Shown here: positions 1 to 5,046 of the stretch, piece by piece
How the letters are laid out: each line of letters begins with the position of its first letter
How positions within the stretch are numbered: position 1 is the first letter of the stretch
IMG/VR virus record: IMGVR_UViG_2671180636_000004
DNA from: a virus
Lineage: Duplodnaviria; Heunggongvirae; Uroviricota; Caudoviricetes
Strand: one strand, 5' to 3'
Length of the DNA: 5,046 nucleotides
The notes under the pieces: model-generated
What the model was told of the DNA's origin: nothing
The model's input: the letters and a program-made list of their open reading frames with translations, nothing else
Database searches by the model: none
Made by a program: the position numbers and the translations under genes

Positions 1-45
1 TGAACATAAAACACTATCAATAAGTTGGAGTCATCACCCCAATTT

Positions 46-59
46 TTTACGTACGTAAA
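46..59. repeat. Perfect 14-bp palindrome TTTACGTACGTAAA upstream of the porin gene; function unknown, possible regulator binding site
   Basis: Read directly from the sequence; the reverse complement is identical. It lies in the visible part of the porin upstream region before the N-mask. Confidence 0.5.
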
Positions 60-508
60 CCACTAAATGATATTTGCGAGAATGCTACCGAGTATTGAAA
101 ACACCACTACANNNNNNNNNNNNNNNNNNNNNNNNNNNNNNNNNNNNNNNNNNNNNNNNNNNNNNNNNNNNNNNNNNNNNNNNNNNNNNNNNNNNNNNNN
201 NNNNNNNNNNNNNNNNNNNNNNNNNNNNNNNNNNNNNNNNNNNNNNNNNNNNNNNNNNNNNNNNNNNNNNNNNNNNNNNNNNNNNNNNNNNNNNNNNNNN
301 NNNNNNNNNNNNNNNNNNNNNNNNNNNNNNNNNNNNNNNNNNNNNNNNNNNNNNNNNNNNNNNNNNNNNNNNNNNNNNNNNNNNNNNNNNNNNNNNNNNN
401 NNNNNNNNNNNNNNNNNNNNNNNNNNNNNNNNNNNNNNNNNNNNNNNNNNNNNNNNNNNNNNNNNNNNNNNNNNNNNNNNNNNNNNNNNNNNNNNNNNNN
501 NNNNNNNN

Positions 509-1594
509 NNNNNNNNNNNNNNNNNNNNNNNNNNNNNNNNNNNNNNNNNNNNNNNNNNNNNNNNNNNNGCTCAGGCAGCTGAAATTTATAATAAAGACAG
601 TAACAAGCTGGATCTGTACGGGAAAGTTAATGCTAAGCACTACTTCTCCTCTAATGATGCAGATGATGGTGATACTACTTATGCCCGTCTTGGCTTCAAA
701 GGTGAAACCCAAATCAACGATCAACTGACTGGTTTCGGTCAGTGGGAATATGAATTCAAAGGCAACCGCGCTGAATCTCAAGGTTCCTCCAAAGATAAAA
801 CCCGTCTTGCCTTCGCTGGCCTGAAATTCGGTGACTACGGCTCCATCGATTACGGCCGTAACTACGGTGTAGCATACGACATCGGTGCGTGGACTGACGT
901 CCTGCCAGAATTCGGTGGTGACACTTGGACTCAAACAGATGTGTTCATGACTGGTCGCACCACTGGTGTTGCAACTTATCGTAACAACGACTTCTTTGGT
1001 CTGGTTGATGGTCTGAACTTTGCTGCTCAGTATCAGGGTAAAAATGACCGCACTGACGTAACTGAAGCTAATGGTGATGGTTTCGGTTTCTCCACTACTT
1101 ATGAGTATGAAGGATTCGGTGTAGGTGCAACCTATGCTAAATCTGACCGCACTAATAATCAGGTTATCTACGGTAACAACAGCCTGAATGCATCTGGTCA
1201 AAATGCTGAAGTATGGGCAGCTGGTCTGAAATATGATGCGAACAACATCTATCTGGCTACCACCTATTCTGAAACCCAGAACATGACTGTTTTTGGTAAT
1301 AACCATATTGCCAACAAAGCACAAAACTTCGAAGTAGTTGCACAATATCAGTTCGACTTCGGTCTGCGTCCGTCCGTTGCTTACCTGCAATCTAAAGGAA
1401 AAGACTTGGGTGCGTGGGGTGATCAGGACCTGGTTGAATATATTGATGTAGGTGCAACCTATTACTTCAACAAAAATATGTCCACTTTTGTTGATTACAA
1501 AATCAACCTGATTGATAAGAGCGATTTCACGAAAGCATCTGGCGTTGCTACCGATGATATCGNNNNNNNNNNNNNNNNNNNNNNNNNNNNNNNN
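509..1594 (+). CDS. nmpC: General diffusion porin of the OmpC/OmpF/PhoE family (prophage NmpC/Lc type); both ends lie in masked sequence, so boundaries are estimates
   Basis: Visible portion is 569-1562. The translation starts ...AQA|[17 protein letters not shown] (signal-peptidase site followed by the typical mature porin N-terminus) and contains the PEFGGD loop-3 motif and alternating beta-strand pattern typical of enterobacterial trimeric porins. Start at about 509 assumes a 23-residue signal peptide; end assumes about 9 more residues plus stop after ...ASGVATDDI. The 74..2083 track ORF is an artefact of reading through N runs. Confidence 0.85.
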
Positions 1595-1945: not shown

Positions 1946-2329
1946 NNNNNNNNNNNNNNNNNNNNNNNNNNNNNNNNNNNNNNNNNNNNNNNNNNNNNNN
2001 NNNNNNNNNNNNNNNNNNNNNNNNNNNNNNNNNNNNNNNNNNNNNNNNNNNNNNNNNNNNNNNCAATGCTTACCTGCCAGTGACATGAATGTCATACCGA
2101 CTACATAATAATCTACTAATAAATCGTGCAAATCGCTGTTGTTCTTTTTCAGACGGGCCATGCACCCGCAAATAATCATCGCGTCATCGTCACAACATTG
2201 CGGGCGAGATTTTACTTTTGAAGTAATTAATCCCTTAAAACCGGCGGCAATGGACGACCAGGTCACATCTTCATGATTATTAGCCGCCCACGCTCCCCAA
2301 CGCTCAAGAACCATCTGAATATCACGCAT
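1946..2329 (-). CDS. quuD: Late-gene antiterminator Q (DLP12/phage 82-type Q family); 3' part masked, end estimated from recalled length of about 127 aa
   Basis: Visible 2064-2329 translates to [64 protein letters not shown]..., with a Cys-rich segment. ATG at 2329-2327 is preceded by GGAG at 7 nt spacing. The track ORF begins at an in-frame TTG at 2344 (MWSKLM...), but the ATG at 2329 with an SD is the more plausible start. Position immediately downstream of rusA/ylcG matches lambdoid gene order. Confidence 0.8.
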
Positions 2330-2414
2330 CAACTTACTCCACAAAAATCAGACCAGAACGCCAATTACAAGCAAAAATCAACAAAACAGTATTAGTTGAT
2401 TGTTATCTCTGACT

Positions 2415-2555
2415 TCATACTCCTGCTCCTGTCAGGGTTTTGGCGTAATTCTTCAGTATTCGGTAATCGGTCAAAACAGAACCGGGGAAACGATATAAGC
2501 GCAGATGCCCCCAGCGGTGGCGAAGAAGTTCTGCCATATAAAACTCAAACATCAT
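2415..2555 (-). CDS. ylcG: Small 46-aa protein between rusA and Q (YlcG-like); below the ORF-track cutoff, found by hand translation
   Basis: Minus-strand ORF reads [46 protein letters not shown]. Its ATG (2555-2553) overlaps the rusA stop TGA (2554-2552) in an ATGA arrangement. Length and position match what I recall for DLP12 ylcG; the sequence identity itself is not verified. Confidence 0.5.
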
Positions 2556-2938
2556 TCATTCCCCATTTCGGTGATGGTCAGTTCCAGCCTCCCACCTTTG
2601 GTAACAGGCATCTTCACAACGCGGTAATCAACGACCTGAGCATCATCCAGCCAGAAACCTGCTTTGGTGAGTGCGTCAAAAGCGGCTTTTTGCAGATTAT
2701 CCAGGTCACGGCGACGGCGATCCGGCATGTGGCACTCAATACGGATTTTCACTGGCATAGCCAGGCCGATATCCAGCATTGCGTTTTTAATGATTCGGGT
2801 GACGTTATCGCGGTATGCCTGCCCTTCTGCGCTGATGTGTGTGCGCCCGCGATTATGGCGGTAATAGCGGTTATTGCTCGGAGGCCAGGGNNNNNNNNNN
2901 NNNNNNNNNNNNNNNNNNNNNATGCTGTAGGTATTCAC
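2552..2938 (-). CDS. rusA: Holliday-junction resolvase RusA (crossover junction endodeoxyribonuclease)
   Basis: Translation MNTYS[masked][30 protein letters not shown]...[63 protein letters not shown] matches RusA as I recall it. Start codon is GTG at 2938-2936, overlapping the ybcO stop (GTGA). Codons 2891-2921 are N-masked. Confidence 0.9.
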
Positions 2939-3225
2939 GCCTTAATAACCCCCTCTTTCAGCCAGATAACCTGCGTTCTCGCCATACCTTCCAGCGCGCA
3001 TTCTTTTGCATACTCAGCATCGACAAAATATGTGCGGCGGTCGATTTCGTCGTGACAGGCAGAACATGCAATGGTGGCAATCAGGTCTGGCGGTTTGATA
3101 CCGGTACCGCACAATCCAGCCAGCCGGATATGTGCCAGTACTGACGTTTCAGGATTGCCATTACATACGCCAGGGATTCTTACCTGGCATTCCCGACCAC
3201 GCGCTGCTTTTCTCAAATCAGCCAT
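2935..3225 (-). CDS. ybcO: YbcO-like prophage protein (DUF1364 family, putative nuclease), 96 aa
   Basis: Translation [99 protein letters not shown] at 3225-3223 is preceded by GGAGG (complement of 3230-3234). The track ORF extends to an upstream in-frame start at 3264, but the SD-supported ATG at 3225 is preferred. Stop TGA at 2937-2935. Confidence 0.85.
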   Translation of the reverse strand: MADLRKAARGRECQVRIPGVCNGNPETSVLAHIRLAGLCGTGIKPPDLIATIACSACHDEIDRRTYFVDAEYAKECALEGMARTQVIWLKEGVIKA

Positions 3226-3388
3226 GATTCCTCCTTGCTGCCAGTCGCAACCATTTTTTATCAACCAGGCTAGCGGTATATCCGAGCAGTGTTGGTATTT
3301 CGGATGGCTTCAGCTCAGGCTTACGCTTACGACGATTTGATACTCTGTAGATGTGCCCGTTCATGACACGAATAAGCGGTGTAGCCAT
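3218..3388 (-). CDS. ninE: NinE-like small protein, 56 aa; not in the ORF track, found by hand translation
   Basis: Minus-strand translation from ATG 3388-3386: MATPLIRVMNGHIYRVSNRRKRKPELKPSEIPTLLGYTASLVDKKWLRLAARRNHG*. AGGAGG SD lies upstream. The start overlaps the ybcN stop (TAATG) and the stop TGA (3220-3218) overlaps the first codons of ybcO. Confidence 0.75.
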   Translation of the reverse strand: MATPLIRVMNGHIYRVSNRRKRKPELKPSEIPTLLGYTASLVDKKWLRLAARRNHG

Positions 3389-3843
3389 TACGCCTCCTGC
3401 TTATCGCGCAGCTGCTGGTATTCACAGCTCTGCAGAATTGTCAGGTGGCAGCCGATATTCATCGCCCAGGCTTCGACTTTGCACAGGAAGATGTACATCT
3501 CGCCGGTTTCCAGCTCTGACGTATGGCGGAGGGATTGGACGGTGGTGACCTCGCCGGACACGACATCTACACGGTCTTTGCTTTCGTAGCCGAGATAGGT
3601 GTGCTTCATCGCGTCTTTGACCCACTCAGGCGTAGCGAAGGTCTTGCCGCGGGCGATGAGATATTCGCTGATCTCCGTGTACCACATGTGGCTGAGCGCG
3701 TTCTGCGACAGGCTGCGCTTCTCGCGCCACGGCTTAACCTGCAGGCGTAAGCATTGCCCGGCATCCAGCAATGGCTGAATCTGCTGGCCGATGGCCGCGA
3801 AGTTACCGCGATGGAGTTTGATGCCGTCTACTGGCAGAGTCAT
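3388..3843 (-). CDS. ybcN: YbcN-like prophage protein (DLP12 nin-region protein, reported DNA base-flipping protein), 151 aa
   Basis: Translation MTLPVDGIKLHRGNFAAIGQQIQPLLDAGQCLRLQVKPWREKRSLSQNALSHMWYTEISEYLIARGKTFATPEWVKDAMKHTYLGYESKDRVDVVSGEVTTVQSLRHTSELETGEMYIFLCKVEAWAMNIGCHLTILQSCEYQQLRDKQEA. ATG at 3843-3841 is preceded by GGGAGG. Stop TAA at 3390-3388. Confidence 0.85.
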   Translation of the reverse strand: MTLPVDGIKLHRGNFAAIGQQIQPLLDAGQCLRLQVKPWREKRSLSQNALSHMWYTEISEYLIARGKTFATPEWVKDAMKHTYLGYESKDRVDVVSGEVTTVQSLRHTSELETGEMYIFLCKVEAWAMNIGCHLTILQSCEYQQLRDKQEA

Positions 3844-3935
3844 ACGGCCTCCCTAACGGAAACCGCAGAATGCAGAAAATCGCAGGTGCATTTCTGCATC
3901 TGTGACAAGGTGATGAGTTCAGATTGTGGTCGCAT
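3840..3935 (-). CDS. Small 31-aa ORF translationally coupled to ybcN (possibly the ylcH equivalent); hypothetical
   Basis: Hand translation of the minus strand: MRPQSELITLSQMQKCTCDFLHSAVSVREAV*. ATG at 3935-3933 is preceded by AAGGGGA. Its stop TGA (3842-3840) overlaps the ybcN ATG (ATGA). Too short for the ORF track; assignment is positional only. Confidence 0.4.
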   Translation of the reverse strand: MRPQSELITLSQMQKCTCDFLHSAVSVREAV

Positions 3936-3954
3936 TTAAGTCCCCTTAAATGCG
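3931..3954. repeat. Inverted repeat (10-bp arms CGCATTTAAG / CTTAAATGCG, 4-nt spacer) covering the SD and start codon of the ylcH-like ORF at the GC-normal/AT-rich junction
   Basis: Read directly from the sequence; arms are exact reverse complements. No U-tract on either strand, so it is not a canonical intrinsic terminator. Confidence 0.5.
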
Positions 3955-4107
3955 CAGAAGTCACCGGAGTTGTTCAGGCTCCGATGAGAGGATTATGGCG
4001 GATTGATTACGATAAATCAAAACTATCTTGAAGCCAAAACAGTGATCTTCGCTTTAAAAACCTTGTATACTTTCACCTAATCACAGCCAGAACTATGGAT
4101 CTAACCA

Positions 4108-4485
4108 ATGACCAACAAAGAAAACAAAGATAAATATATTAACAAGTTCAAGAAAGAGCTTTCAAAATATATACAACCAACTGCTGGAGTGGACATTCAA
4201 TTATTTAACTCTAAGGATGGTGGTGGTGTAATTAAAGCCACTTTGAATAGAAGTGGAAAAAGAAAATCATCTATTGCTGGTAATTTTACTAAATTAGGTG
4301 AGGCAATTACCTCGAGTGGGCAGAGGGTTTTTGGTGGTGATCTATCAAATGTGAATTTTTACGGAACAAATACGATTTTTGATGGAGATACAATATTTTT
4401 AATTAAATCACCTGATTCAGAGGAGTGGTCATCACAAAAAGCTTCCAAAGACGTAGAGGGCATCGTATTTGGAGGGAAAAAATGA
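4108..4485 (+). CDS. Hypothetical protein, 125 aa, lysine-rich N-terminus and Gly-rich motifs (GGGV, FGGD, FGG); no recognisable family; first gene of the AT-rich cassette
   Basis: Uninterrupted 126-codon frame in AT-rich DNA, where stop codons are frequent by chance, so a long open frame is unlikely to be random. The upstream in-frame codon 4102-4104 is TAA, so ATG 4108 is the first possible start. Only a weak SD-like GGAT lies 7 nt upstream. No hydrophobic N-terminus, so probably cytoplasmic. Confidence 0.6.
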   Translation: MTNKENKDKYINKFKKELSKYIQPTAGVDIQLFNSKDGGGVIKATLNRSGKRKSSIAGNFTKLGEAITSSGQRVFGGDLSNVNFYGTNTIFDGDTIFLIKSPDSEEWSSQKASKDVEGIVFGGKK

Positions 4486-4567
4486 TTAACATTACTACTA
4501 AGGATGCACTCAAGTCAGTGGTGAAGTAAGAGATCTAGTAATTCTTCTTGAAACTGATGGAAAAACG

Positions 4568-4909
4568 GTGTCTGATTATTTGCAGCCAATCCCTCCCAAA
4601 AAAGATACACACTGGAGCATGATTTTCATTCCGGTAGCAATTTATATACTACTTAATCTTGTATACATTATTGCTCACCCATTATTTCCTGAAAAATATC
4701 TAAAAACATCAACATCTATATTTCTATTCATTTCCTTCATATTAAGTGCAATAGTAGCATATTTTGTTTTCCATAAGCATAAATCTGCCACTCTATCCAT
4801 ATGCAGCTTAGTGTTCTTAGTGTTAATTGTAGGTGCTAACGTAGGGTTTATCAGTTACAGCGACCTAACACAAAAAGCGACGCAAAAATTAGATAGTTTG
4901 TCTAAATAA
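4568..4909 (+). CDS. Hypothetical small integral membrane protein, 113 aa from GTG 4568 (or about 96 aa from ATG 4619), three predicted transmembrane helices; second gene of the AT-rich cassette
   Basis: Open frame in AT-rich DNA on the same strand, 82 nt downstream of the previous ORF. Three hydrophobic stretches of about 19-20 residues (MIFIPVAIYILLNLVYIIA, SIFLFISFILSAIVAYFVF, LSICSLVFLVLIVGANVGFI) are separated by short charged loops. The first in-frame start is GTG 4568 (weak GGA 6 nt upstream); the alternative ATG 4619 has GGAG only 1 nt upstream, so the true start is uncertain. Confidence 0.6.
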   Translation: MSDYLQPIPPKKDTHWSMIFIPVAIYILLNLVYIIAHPLFPEKYLKTSTSIFLFISFILSAIVAYFVFHKHKSATLSICSLVFLVLIVGANVGFISYSDLTQKATQKLDSLSK

Positions 4910-4916
4910 TTATGTT

Positions 4917-4937
4917 GCCATGCGAAGTATGCATGGC
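4917..4937. repeat. Inverted repeat (7-bp arms GCCATGC / GCATGGC, 7-nt loop) 8 nt downstream of the cassette's second ORF; possible weak terminator or binding site
   Basis: Read directly from the sequence. No adjacent T-tract, so a terminator role is uncertain. Confidence 0.35.
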
Positions 4938-4951
4938 TGCATGTCTGCCTT

Positions 4952-4964
4952 CCATTTAAAATGG
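4952..4964. repeat. Perfect 13-bp palindrome CCATTTAAAATGG; function unknown
   Basis: Read directly from the sequence (6-bp arms around a central A). Confidence 0.35.
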
Positions 4965-5046
4965 GCTAAGACCTATAACCCTAAATATTATTCTTTATTA
5001 TCTTCTTTACCACTTCGGTGATGCTGCCAACTTACTGATTTAGTGT

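What the first reader, a model, noticed from the sequence alone, without database searches (positions are those of the whole stretch)
3840..5046. Variable accessory slot upstream of ylcH/ybcN carries different cargo from the reference DLP12 arrangement
In the E. coli K-12 DLP12 prophage as I recall it, the genes upstream of ylcH-ybcN are ybcL and ybcM on the same strand as the nin genes. Here the corresponding position holds an unrelated, oppositely oriented AT-rich gene pair. This suggests the position is a cargo hotspot where different prophages carry different accessory modules.
Basis: partly seen in the sequence, partly recalled or inferred. Interest (0 to 1): 0.45.

Follow-up and report, generated by a model that had tools for sequence, protein, structure and literature searches.

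The report
Prophage cargo slot with unknown gene pair
The stretch is the well-known variable "accessory gene" slot between the replication genes and the nin genes of a lambda-like prophage, here filled by a rare, uncharacterised two-gene module (a small soluble protein plus a small three-helix membrane protein) that recurs as a fixed pair in very distant bacteria and may be an undescribed phage-exclusion system.

Summary
K-12 DLP12 has ybcL-ybcM-ylcH-ybcN on one strand. The window has an unrelated, opposite-strand, AT-rich pair instead (GC 0.35 against 0.53 for the nin block). Homology to K-12 stops at window 4022.

The cargo module is 4023-5016:
- Gene A, 4108-4485, 125 aa.
- Gene B, 4482-4909, 142 aa in relatives, frameshifted here.
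- An IS1 end at 5017, which replaces the replication gene P.

The hotspot reading is supported. Of 2778 complete E. coli genomes with the ylcH-ybcN anchor, 46 carry this cassette and 672 carry the K-12 cargo. Four others sampled hold ren, a SNIPE-associated protein, a HEPN protein or an inverse autotransporter.

The slot as a kind is already known. The cargo is not described. A and B have no Pfam, NCBIfam, PADLOC or PDB match. Both are under strong purifying selection (dN/dS about 0.08). They occupy the same slot, always antisense, in Enterobacter- and Klebsiella-type prophages. Distant A homologues across several phyla are always followed by a B-like gene, sometimes beside Type III R-M, BREX, AbiTii or OLD-like genes. 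Phage exclusion is an inference, not shown.

The parts
3388..3843 (-). ybcN-family (NinB-like) gene. It is the first gene of the nin block and the fixed right-hand anchor of the slot.
   Evidence: 151-aa ORF. Pfam NinB 3.5e-05. PGAP name 'YbcN family protein' WP_000174718.1 in identical relatives. 121/151 identical to K-12 YbcN.
3840..3935 (-). ylcH-like small ORF (31 aa) whose stop overlaps the ybcN start (ATGA).
   Evidence: Translation MRPQSELITLSQMQKCTCDFLHSAVSVREAV against K-12 YlcH, 17/33 identical. PGAP does not annotate it in the window-type allele but does in the K-12-like allele. Two terminator-like hairpins lie inside it on the minus strand.
3936..4022 (.). Conserved flank upstream of ylcH. 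Its outer edge (4022/4023) is the recurrent mosaic joint of the slot.
   Evidence: Homology to K-12 ends at 4022. Most IMG/VR loci break 177-179 bp upstream of the ybcN ATG. Most of 2778 E. coli genomes break at query 279-281, which is window 4020-4022.
4023..5016 (+). Cargo module: an AT-rich two-gene cassette on the strand opposite to the phage early-right operon.
   Evidence: GC 0.347. Present at >=99% identity in 46/5426 E. coli genomes, always single copy and chromosomal. Absent from 50,697 phage records and 72,556 plasmids.
4066..4071 (+). TATACT, the only -10-like hexamer upstream of gene A. This is weak evidence for a promoter.
   Evidence: Read from the sequence. The consensus scan found no sigma-70-type site on the plus strand upstream of 4108. 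The upstream region is not conserved in the Klebsiella-type cassette.
4108..4485 (+). Gene A: a 125-aa soluble protein (WP_000182282.1, PHROG 18061) with no signal peptide or transmembrane segment. It founds a family of about 125-135-aa proteins.
   Evidence: ORF. PHROG 18061 at 9e-85. No Pfam, PADLOC or NCBIfam hit. 111 representatives at E<=1e-3 in an exhaustive HMMER search. dN/dS 0.077 against the Klebsiella-type copy.
4482..4909 (+). Gene B, a pseudogene in this window. In relatives it is 142 aa (WP_000608370.1, PHROG 16940): a conserved 36-aa N-terminal domain followed by three transmembrane helices. Its start overlaps the stop of A (ATGA).
   Evidence: One G is missing after 4504 relative to L002 and L003, giving a stop after 15 codons. 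The intact form is annotated. AF2 model pLDDT 73 shows a beta-hairpin, a helix and three long helices. Hydropathy supports this. dN/dS 0.091.
4917..4937 (+). Hairpin GCCATGC-GAAGTAT-GCATGGC, eight bases after the B stop codon. It is a likely 3' end or terminator element of the cassette but has no T-run.
   Evidence: RNA fold of 4905-5005: -23.2 kcal/mol, z = -2.8. The same stem with a different loop follows B in the Klebsiella-type cassette.
4963..4981 (-). Terminator-like hairpin just downstream of the extended P reading frame, facing the cassette.
   Evidence: Consensus scan. Also present in the fold of the minus strand.
4989..5016 (-). The last nine codons and stop of the cassette-specific extension of replication gene P (..RSGKEDNKE*). 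No canonical P sequence remains.
   Evidence: Canonical P ends GGGATGGTGTGA. Cassette-bearing prophages read GGGATGGTGCGAAGTGGTAAAG..TAA, giving 237 aa instead of 229 aa. In the window IS1 abuts GAAGTGG.
5017..5046 (+). Left inverted repeat of IS1. This is a rearrangement junction that removed P, O, immunity and integrase from this prophage.
   Evidence: Matches the IS1 ends in L001, L099 and L104. No target duplication. In L104 the csc sucrose genes lie beyond it.
1..38 (+). Right end of another IS1 copy in the same orientation. It is a simple insertion between the lysis genes and the porin gene.
   Evidence: Matches the IS1 end. Flanked by the duplicated CCAATTTT(T) in L099 and L104.

Best explanation
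Window 3840-5046 is the accessory slot that lambda-like phages keep between replication gene P and the first nin gene. Lambda carries ren at that position.

The host prophage is a DLP12-type remnant. Its sequence is 99.9-100% identical to IS1-rich assemblies that are probably Shigella.

The slot has two sharp recombination joints. One is at the stop codon of P. The other is about 179 bp upstream of ybcN, at window 4022/4023. Between these joints different prophages hold different cargo.

Here the cargo is a self-contained two-gene module transcribed against the phage early operon. A is a 125-aa cytoplasmic protein. B is translationally coupled to A and is a 142-aa inner-membrane protein with a small, probably cytoplasmic, N-terminal domain and three transmembrane helices.

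Shown:
- The slot is variable.
- The joints are recurrent.
- A and B are real genes under purifying selection.
- They travel as an obligate pair.
- They sit in the same slot and orientation in four different lambdoid lineages.
- They have distant relatives in several bacterial phyla.

Inferred, at about 0.4 confidence: the pair is expressed from the prophage and excludes or aborts infection by other phages. In this model A senses or regulates and B is the membrane effector.

In this window the module is dead or dying. B is frameshifted, and IS1 has removed the rest of the prophage on that side.

The overall confidence of 0.75 refers to the slot and the autonomous two-gene module, not to the defence function.
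For: Slot and joints:
- K-12 gene order and lambda P-ren-NinB.
- Breakpoint at 4022 against K-12, against most IMG/VR loci and against most of 2778 E. coli genomes.
- Left joint at the P stop codon in 28 loci.
- Different cargo in sampled genomes and in L163, which has DndB-like genes, A-B and a colicin-like pair.
- The same cassette (>=99.8% identical) is linked to two ybcN/ylcH haplotypes, with the switch at about 3878.

Module:
- 46 genomes carry it at >=99% identity.
- The pair is in the P-to-nin slot, antisense, in Klebsiella-type, Enterobacter-type and L163 prophages.
- These prophages have different replication and nin genes.
- dN/dS is 0.077 for A and 0.091 for B, with dS about 2.
- 111 distant A representatives.
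- A B-like gene (N-terminal motif plus about three TM helices) follows A in 9/9 GTDB loci, 29/29 metagenome loci and in L091 and L094.
- No third conserved neighbour.

Defence inference:
- The pair lies between Type III Mod and Res in a Bacteroides genome.
- It lies directly upstream of BrxA-BrxB in a deltaproteobacterium.
- Among 68 neighbour ORFs of 14 metagenome loci: AbiTii x2 (one directly upstream of A), OLD-like TOPRIM x2, AAA_15/AAA_21 x3, integrase x3.
- Other occupants of the same slot are defence-type genes, SNIPE-associated and HEPN (PMC13043305).
Against: - No promoter was found by consensus upstream of A, and the upstream DNA is not conserved between cassette types. Independent expression is therefore unproven.
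- No hit to any of 5027 PADLOC models.
- No homology to RexA or RexB.
- The AF2 model of A is poor (pLDDT 58), and fold searches gave nothing significant.
- Many distant loci have ordinary housekeeping neighbours such as valS, a CLC channel and a response regulator.
- Only roughly a quarter to a third of about 24 loci have a recognisable defence gene nearby, no background rate was computed, and the tool does not assign the counts to loci.
- The module is inactivated at least twice: the B frameshift here, and IS1 inside A in strain CV839-06. It is therefore dispensable.
- No sequenced free phage carries it.
Confidence: 0.75

Rival explanations
1. A-B is a toxin-antitoxin-like addiction module. 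B is a small membrane toxin and A is its neutraliser, or the reverse. Its role would be to stabilise the prophage or island rather than to exclude phages.
For: - Two small overlapping genes that move as a self-contained pair between unrelated contexts.
- Found on mobile elements and next to integrases and transposases.
- In L091 the island also holds an Xre-MbcA/ParS antitoxin-type gene.
Against: - No match to any TA family in Pfam, NCBIfam or PADLOC.
- Each gene has been lost alone in different lineages without the other being removed. B is frameshifted while A is intact here. A is hit by IS1 while B is intact in CV839-06. This argues against a strongly toxic partner, though it does not exclude one.
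- TA and abortive-infection roles are not mutually exclusive.
Confidence: 0.2
2. A-B is a lysogenic-conversion or membrane-physiology module unrelated to phage conflict, for example envelope stress, transport or signalling. It happens to ride in the slot, as emrE and the inverse autotransporter do in other prophages.
For: - The slot also carries non-defence cargo: emrE, ybcL and ybcM in K-12, and an inverse autotransporter in MSB1_7A.
- Many distant A-B loci sit among housekeeping genes.
Against: - Recurrent neighbours are defence genes or mobile-element genes.
- There is no transporter, enzyme or signalling domain signature.
- The distribution is patchy, rare and spans several phyla, which is typical of mobile conflict systems.
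Confidence: 0.2
3. The difference from K-12 is not a hotspot effect. It would be a one-off IS-mediated rearrangement in this IS1-rich genome, or the two IS1 copies would form a composite transposon that brought the segment in.
For: - The window is bracketed by two IS1 ends in direct orientation.
- The right IS1 lies at exactly the edge of the cargo module.
Against: - The same cassette sits between an intact P and ylcH, with no IS1, in 45 E. coli genomes and in full-length prophages.
- The left IS1 has its own 8-9 bp target duplication, so it is a simple insertion.
- The right IS1 has no duplication, and its outer flank is shared with a third, inverted IS1. That is a later rearrangement.
Confidence: 0.03
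4. The two ORFs are chance reading frames in AT-rich non-coding or decaying DNA.
For: - No domain hits.
- B is broken in this window.
Against: - dN/dS is about 0.08-0.09 at saturated dS.
- Full-length homologues at 20-35% identity occur across phyla with conserved motifs and a conserved partner.
Confidence: 0.01

Closest known systems
Lambda ren / nin-region accessory slot (P - ren - ninB), and morons of lambdoid phages
   Same: - Same position: directly after replication gene P and before the NinB-family gene.
- Content differs between otherwise homologous prophages.
- Foreign base composition.
- Joints fall at gene boundaries.
   Different: - Lambda's ren is a single gene on the operon strand. 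Here the cargo is two genes on the opposite strand and there is no ren.
- An own promoter, which is part of the classical moron definition, was not found.
Prophage-encoded defence genes placed after the replication genes, such as the Gifsy-1 HEPN abortive-infection protein (PMC13043305) and the SNIPE-associated and HEPN genes seen here in E. coli
   Same: - Same region of lambdoid prophages.
- That paper chose its candidate partly because accessory genes are often encoded there.
- Searches show such genes in this very slot upstream of ylcH-ybcN.
   Different: - A and B share no domain with HEPN or SNIPE.
- Their function is untested.
Lambda RexA/RexB exclusion system
   Same: A prophage-borne pair of one cytoplasmic protein and one small polytopic inner-membrane protein (RexB 144 aa, B 142 aa).
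   Different: - No sequence relationship (hhalign probability 0.2% and 0.03%).
- A is 125 aa, whereas RexA is 279 aa.
- B has three predicted helices plus an N-terminal domain. That RexB has four helices is from my own knowledge.
- rexAB lie next to cI, not in the P-ninB slot.
[quoted passage not shown]
   Same: The concept is the same: a fixed position between conserved phage genes where many different, often novel, defence systems are exchanged.
   Different: - A different phage family and different flanking genes.
- This lambdoid slot also carries non-defence cargo: emrE, an adhesin and a colicin-like pair.
Mycobacteriophage Butters gp30/gp31 (recalled from memory, not tested here)
   Same: A prophage-expressed pair of a cytoplasmic protein and a small multi-pass membrane protein that together exclude heterotypic phages.
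   Different: - A different host phylum.
- No comparison was run, so no homology is claimed.

Membership tests
Lambdoid P-to-ninB accessory slot (moron position) | Lies between replication gene P and the NinB-family first nin gene | tested here: met
   Intact relatives read P, then B and A reversed, then ylcH and ybcN. In the window itself P is replaced by IS1 and only its last 28 nt remain.
Lambdoid P-to-ninB accessory slot (moron position) | Content differs between prophages that share the flanks | tested here: met
   46 genomes have the cassette and 672 have the K-12 cargo, out of 2778 with the anchor. Four sampled genomes each differ. In 60 IMG/VR loci the interval is 1.1-3.7 kb.
Lambdoid P-to-ninB accessory slot (moron position) | Base composition unlike the surrounding phage genes | tested here: met
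   GC 0.347 against 0.531 for the nin block. The Klebsiella-type cassette is 0.338 against 0.50 for its locus.
Lambdoid P-to-ninB accessory slot (moron position) | Own promoter and terminator (independent transcription unit) | tested here: inconclusive
   A hairpin after B is conserved in two cassette types. No consensus promoter lies upstream of A, only a TATACT at 4066-4071.
Lambdoid P-to-ninB accessory slot (moron position) | Expressed from the repressed prophage | not testable with these tools
   No transcript data were available. A literature search for the protein accessions and PHROG ids found nothing.
RexAB-type exclusion system | Sequence or profile homology to RexA and RexB | tested here: not met
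   hhalign of the B profile against RexB: probability 0.2%. A profile against RexA: probability 0.03%.
RexAB-type exclusion system | Cytoplasmic protein plus small polytopic membrane protein encoded together | tested here: met
   A has no hydrophobic segment. B has three. The genes overlap by ATGA.
RexAB-type exclusion system | Encoded next to the repressor and co-transcribed with it | tested here: not met
   The cassette is downstream of P. The repressor lies more than 2.5 kb away beyond O and the cro/cII-like genes.
Any described anti-phage defence system (PADLOC-DB 2.0) | Match to a model of a known or candidate defence protein | tested here: not met
   No family matched E. coli A or B at E<=1. 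Only four chance-level hits (E 0.002-0.009) among 72 diverse A homologues. The library dates from 2023, so newer systems are not covered.
Any described anti-phage defence system | Reduces phage plating or survives infection when expressed | not testable with these tools
   This needs an experiment.
Type II toxin-antitoxin module | Match to a known toxin or antitoxin family; one partner toxic alone | tested here: not met
   No Pfam, NCBIfam or PADLOC TA family matched. Toxicity itself could not be tested.
Phage holin (class I, three transmembrane helices) | Holin family match and position in the lysis cassette | tested here: not met
   No holin Pfam hit for B. The lysis genes essD, rrrD and rzpD lie elsewhere. 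Only weak structural similarity to holins, E>1.
IS1 composite transposon | Two IS1 copies bracketing a segment, with one shared target duplication outside | tested here: not met
   The left IS1 has its own duplication CCAATTTT(T). The right IS1 has none, and its outer flank is shared with a third, inverted IS1.

The most novel reading that the evidence does not exclude
A-B founds an undescribed two-gene anti-phage system that spans several phyla. A small cytoplasmic protein would be coupled to a three-helix membrane effector. In enterobacteria the system is carried as an antisense moron in the P-ninB slot of lambdoid prophages. Elsewhere it is embedded in or next to Type III R-M, BREX, AbiTii and OLD-type loci.
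Probability: 0.35. Interest if true: 0.6.

Novelty: new member of a known kind. Interest (0 to 1): 0.4.

Why it matters
The slot adds nothing conceptually. It confirms, with counts, that the P-to-ninB position of DLP12-type prophages is one of the places where E. coli swaps accessory genes. Cargo seen there includes an efflux pump, an adhesin, a colicin-like pair and defence genes.

The useful product is the cargo. It is a compact 0.8-kb gene pair that no database names. It is under strong selection, is strictly paired across Proteobacteria, Bacteroidota, Acidobacteriota and Myxococcota, and repeatedly sits beside known defence genes. That makes it a cheap, well-defined candidate for a phage-challenge experiment.

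The sharply defined joints also give a practical recipe for mining this slot across thousands of genomes. One joint is the P stop codon and the other lies 179 bp upstream of ybcN.

Tried and rejected
- Pfam, NCBIfam, PADLOC and PHROGs scans of A and B gave only two function-unknown PHROGs.
- Scans of 72 diverse A homologues and 10 distant B homologues gave nothing above cut-off.
- Profile searches of the A and B families against PDB sequences gave no hit below E 0.025.
- AF2 models: A is poor (pLDDT 58) and B is moderate (pLDDT 73).
- Homology to RexA/RexB is rejected.
- Cassette DNA and the A protein found nothing in INPHARED phages or PLSDB plasmids.
- A conserved third gene next to A-B was not found.
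- The composite-transposon idea for the two IS1 ends is rejected.
- A broad family alignment was too diverse for back-translated pattern scans. A narrower one had to be used, so the GTDB and metagenome samples cover only the 'IQxYINNF(R)' subfamily.
- The Brenes and Laub 2025 paper on E. coli prophage defences is not held. I could not check whether this pair was already tested there.
- A text search for the protein accessions and PHROG ids found no paper.
Full report
WHAT IS IN THE WINDOW

The window is a DLP12-type lambdoid prophage fragment, read as the reverse complement of the K-12 orientation.

- On the plus strand there is an ompC/nmpC-type porin gene, partly hidden by runs of N.
- On the minus strand there are quuD, ylcG, rusA, ybcO, ninE, a ybcN-family gene (3388-3843) and a 31-codon ylcH-like ORF (3840-3935).
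- Both ends of the window are IS1 ends: 1-38 and 5017-5046.

Assemblies L099, L101 and L104 match the window at 99.9-100%, including both IS1 junctions. They are crowded with IS elements. A 100% identical partial protein carries the NCBI label Shigella sonnei. The source is therefore probably a Shigella-type genome, although I did not verify the organism name.

CHECKING THE OBSERVATION

- MG1655 is annotated renD::IS3, emrE, ylcJ, ybcK, ybcL, ybcM, ylcH, ybcN, ninE and onward, all on one strand.
- Homology between the window and K-12 runs from 2064 to 4022 and then stops, 31 bp after the ybcM stop codon in K-12.
- Beyond 4022 the window has two plus-strand ORFs, A (4108-4485) and B (4482-4909).
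- GC there is 0.347, against 0.531 for the nin block.
- Neither ORF resembles YbcL or YbcM.

Four corrections to the finding follow from this.

- Positions 3840-4022 are conserved flank and not cargo.
- Positions 5017-5046 are IS1.
- Gene B has lost one G after position 4504 and stops after 15 codons, so it is a pseudogene here.

THE INTACT ARRANGEMENT

In 45 complete E. coli genomes without IS1, the cassette sits between replication gene P and ylcH-ybcN. Strains 536, F11, A7 and BH100N are among them. The same is true in full-length prophages that still have integrase, recombination, immunity, O, P, lysis and head genes. In all of these the cassette is on the strand opposite to the phage early operon.

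In strain CV839-06 an IS1 interrupts gene A. The cassette is at least 99% identical in all 46 genomes and is always single copy and chromosomal. It is absent from 50,697 phage records and 72,556 plasmids, both as DNA and as protein.

THE SLOT AND ITS JOINTS

The ylcH-ybcN anchor is present in 2778 of 5426 complete E. coli genomes.

- In nearly all of them the alignment to the window ends at window 4020-4022. Minor classes end 13, 42 and 77 bp further in. Only 46 continue into the cassette.
- The same break, 177-179 bp upstream of the ybcN start, is seen in most of 73 IMG/VR viral contigs whose YbcN is at least 97% identical.
- On the other side, 28 loci share homology with the cassette-bearing P gene up to its normal stop codon and no further.
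- Canonical P ends GGGATGGTGTGA and the next gene starts at once. Cassette-bearing prophages read GGGATGGTGCGAAGTGG and onward. This removes the stop and adds nine codons.

Both joints therefore fall at gene boundaries, as is usual for lambdoid mosaics.

The same cassette is linked to two ybcN/ylcH haplotypes. The switch is at about 3878, inside ylcH. This shows recombination in the conserved flank.

WHAT ELSE OCCUPIES THE SLOT

- Lambda has ren.
- K-12 has renD, emrE, ylcJ, ybcK, ybcL and ybcM, also AT-rich at GC 0.36.
- E. coli 16F5M1D1 has ren plus two small genes.
- E. coli EC10 has ren, a reversed SNIPE-associated-domain protein and a P22AR-domain protein.
- E. coli RM6927 has a HEPN protein and its partner.
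- E. coli MSB1_7A has a 1302-aa inverse autotransporter.
- An enterobacterial prophage, L163, has DndB-like genes, A-B and a colicin-like plus immunity-like pair together.

In 60 IMG/VR loci with a recognisable replication gene, the interval is 1145-3656 bp, with a median of 2.9 kb. It consists mostly of same-strand small genes at GC about 0.50. The cassette locus is the shortest and the most AT-rich of these.

It is not new. A 2026 paper picked a Gifsy-1 defence gene partly because accessory genes are often encoded after the replication genes of lambdoid prophages (PMC13043305).

THE CARGO

A is a 125-aa protein with no hydrophobic segment. B is 142 aa in intact copies. It has an almost invariant 36-residue N-terminal domain followed by three transmembrane helices, and its start codon overlaps the stop of A.

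From the positive-inside rule I infer that the N-terminal domain of B faces the cytoplasm, where it could meet A.

Both proteins belong only to function-unknown PHROGs. They match nothing in Pfam, NCBIfam, PADLOC or PDB sequences.

They are real genes. Between the E. coli cassette and the 74%/69% identical Klebsiella-type cassette, dN/dS is 0.077 for A and 0.091 for B, with synonymous sites saturated.

The pair sits in the same slot and the same antisense orientation in other prophages.

- Klebsiella-type prophages, upstream of DUF1367-NinE. Their replication modules are DnaB-, IstB- or O-type.
- Enterobacter-type prophages, between a 229-aa P and ybcN.
- L163.

A hairpin right after B is kept in both cassette types. 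No consensus promoter was found upstream of A.

A WIDER FAMILY

An exhaustive profile search found 111 representatives of an A family, nearly all 120-135 aa and matched end to end.

- Named genomes that carry it include a deltaproteobacterium and an Acidiferrales bacterium.
- They also include a Myxococcales bacterium and a betaproteobacterium.
- Bacteroides, Flavobacterium and Mariniflexile carry it as well.

Every locus with room has a B-like gene directly after A.

- This holds in 9 of 9 GTDB loci and 29 of 29 metagenome loci. It also holds in L091 and L094.
- The B-like gene encodes 124-154 aa in all but one locus. In L150 the downstream ORF is 441 aa.
- It usually overlaps A by 4 or 8 bases.
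- It has an N-terminal motif (approximately EG..E[IV][KR][DN][LF]..G..L..Y[IL]E.P) and about three transmembrane segments.

No third gene recurs. A-B is thus an obligate, self-contained pair that moves between unrelated contexts.

CLUES TO FUNCTION

- In a Bacteroides genome the pair lies between the Mod and Res genes of a Type III restriction system.
- In a deltaproteobacterium it lies directly upstream of BrxA-BrxB.
- In Mariniflexile it is flanked by transposases.
- Among 68 neighbour ORFs from 14 metagenome loci, the recurring Pfam families were Phage_integrase (3), AAA_15/AAA_21 (3), OLD-like TOPRIM (2) and AbiTii (2). One AbiTii gene is directly upstream of A.
- Other loci have plain housekeeping neighbours.

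This pattern, the prophage position and the cytoplasmic-plus-membrane architecture fit a phage-exclusion or abortive-infection system. That system would resemble RexAB in design but not in sequence.

This remains inference. I did not compute a background rate, and the structural models gave no functional lead. A toxin-antitoxin-like or other membrane role remains open.

STATE OF THE MODULE IN THIS WINDOW

B is frameshifted. The same frameshift appears in a clustered database protein, P0037.

The right-hand IS1 has no target duplication. Beyond it lie the csc sucrose genes and not P. The left-hand IS1 is a simple insertion with its own duplication. The prophage is therefore a decaying remnant.

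One oddity remains. The right-hand IS1 abuts the cargo within 0-1 nt of the mosaic joint at the P stop codon. As a result, window 4023-5016 equals the module as defined by comparison. I have no explanation beyond chance or a local target preference.

VERDICT

- The hotspot interpretation is supported, but the hotspot is of a known kind.
- The cargo is an unnamed, conserved, widely scattered two-gene module. It is a reasonable candidate for a new defence system.

Noticed in passing
window 5016/5017 (compare L005:5828-5855): The IS1 end abuts the cargo within 0-1 nt of the point where cassette-bearing prophages diverge from canonical P genes (GTG|TGA against GTG|CGAAGTGG). No canonical P sequence is left. 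The cause could be chance or a target preference, and it is unresolved.
   Followed up: partly
L099:10910-18149 and L104:10911-15306: The right-hand IS1 lacks a target duplication. Its outer flank CGCTTGCAG also borders a third, inverted IS1 about 4-7 kb away, with csc sucrose genes in between. This is the signature of an IS1-mediated rearrangement. In L099 and L101 an IS21-type element sits inside this IS1.
   Followed up: partly
window 1-47; L099:5433-6210: The left-hand IS1 is a simple insertion between essD and the porin gene, flanked by the duplicated CCAATTTT(T).
   Followed up: yes
window 4989-5016; L002:7150-7863: In cassette-bearing E. coli prophages the P stop codon is lost (TGA to CGA). 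P runs nine codons into cargo DNA, giving 237 aa instead of 229 aa. The Enterobacter-type cassette keeps a 229-aa P.
   Followed up: yes
window about 3878/3879: Two haplotypes carry the same cassette. To the right of 3879 they differ at 1-2 positions. In 3840-3878 they differ at 21 of 39 positions, and across the nin genes they are about 94% identical. There is therefore a recombination joint inside ylcH.
   Followed up: yes
L001:6429-7126 (E. coli CV839-06): A separate IS1 insertion interrupts gene A in one pig isolate. This is a second, independent inactivation of the module.
   Followed up: no
one search hits H78-H100 (e.g. UTI89, NC_007946.1:2036386-2037951): About 3100 E. coli genomes hold a roughly 90% identical ybcL-ybcM segment. 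It runs into ylcH, stops before ybcN, and is often next to an IS200/IS605 tnpA. It is a second, much commoner home of the K-12 cargo.
   Followed up: no
L163:1665-3348: The same P-to-NinB slot of another enterobacterial prophage holds a pore-forming-colicin-like gene (377 aa) with an immunity-like gene (174 aa). It also holds a DndB-like gene, alongside A-B.
   Followed up: no
L118:808-2310, L119:3667-4463, L120:434-4342: Other E. coli prophages carry a reversed SNIPE-associated-domain protein, a HEPN pair, or a 1302-aa inverse autotransporter in this slot.
   Followed up: partly
L112:3969-9919 (uncultured Bacteroides sp.): An A-B pair is inserted between the Mod and Res genes of a Type III restriction-modification system. 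A Snf2/HKD-type helicase and a DUF4391 protein lie upstream.
   Followed up: partly
window 3863-3898, minus strand: Two terminator-like hairpins lie inside the ylcH-like ORF, where lambda has tR2 between ren and ninB (the tR2 position is from my own knowledge). The small ORF may overlap a transcription terminator.
   Followed up: no
window 112-568, 1563-2063, 2891-2921: Runs of N mask the start of the porin gene, its end together with part of quuD, and eleven codons of rusA. Relatives show intact genes there (360-aa porin, 127-aa QuuD, 120-aa RusA).
   Followed up: yes
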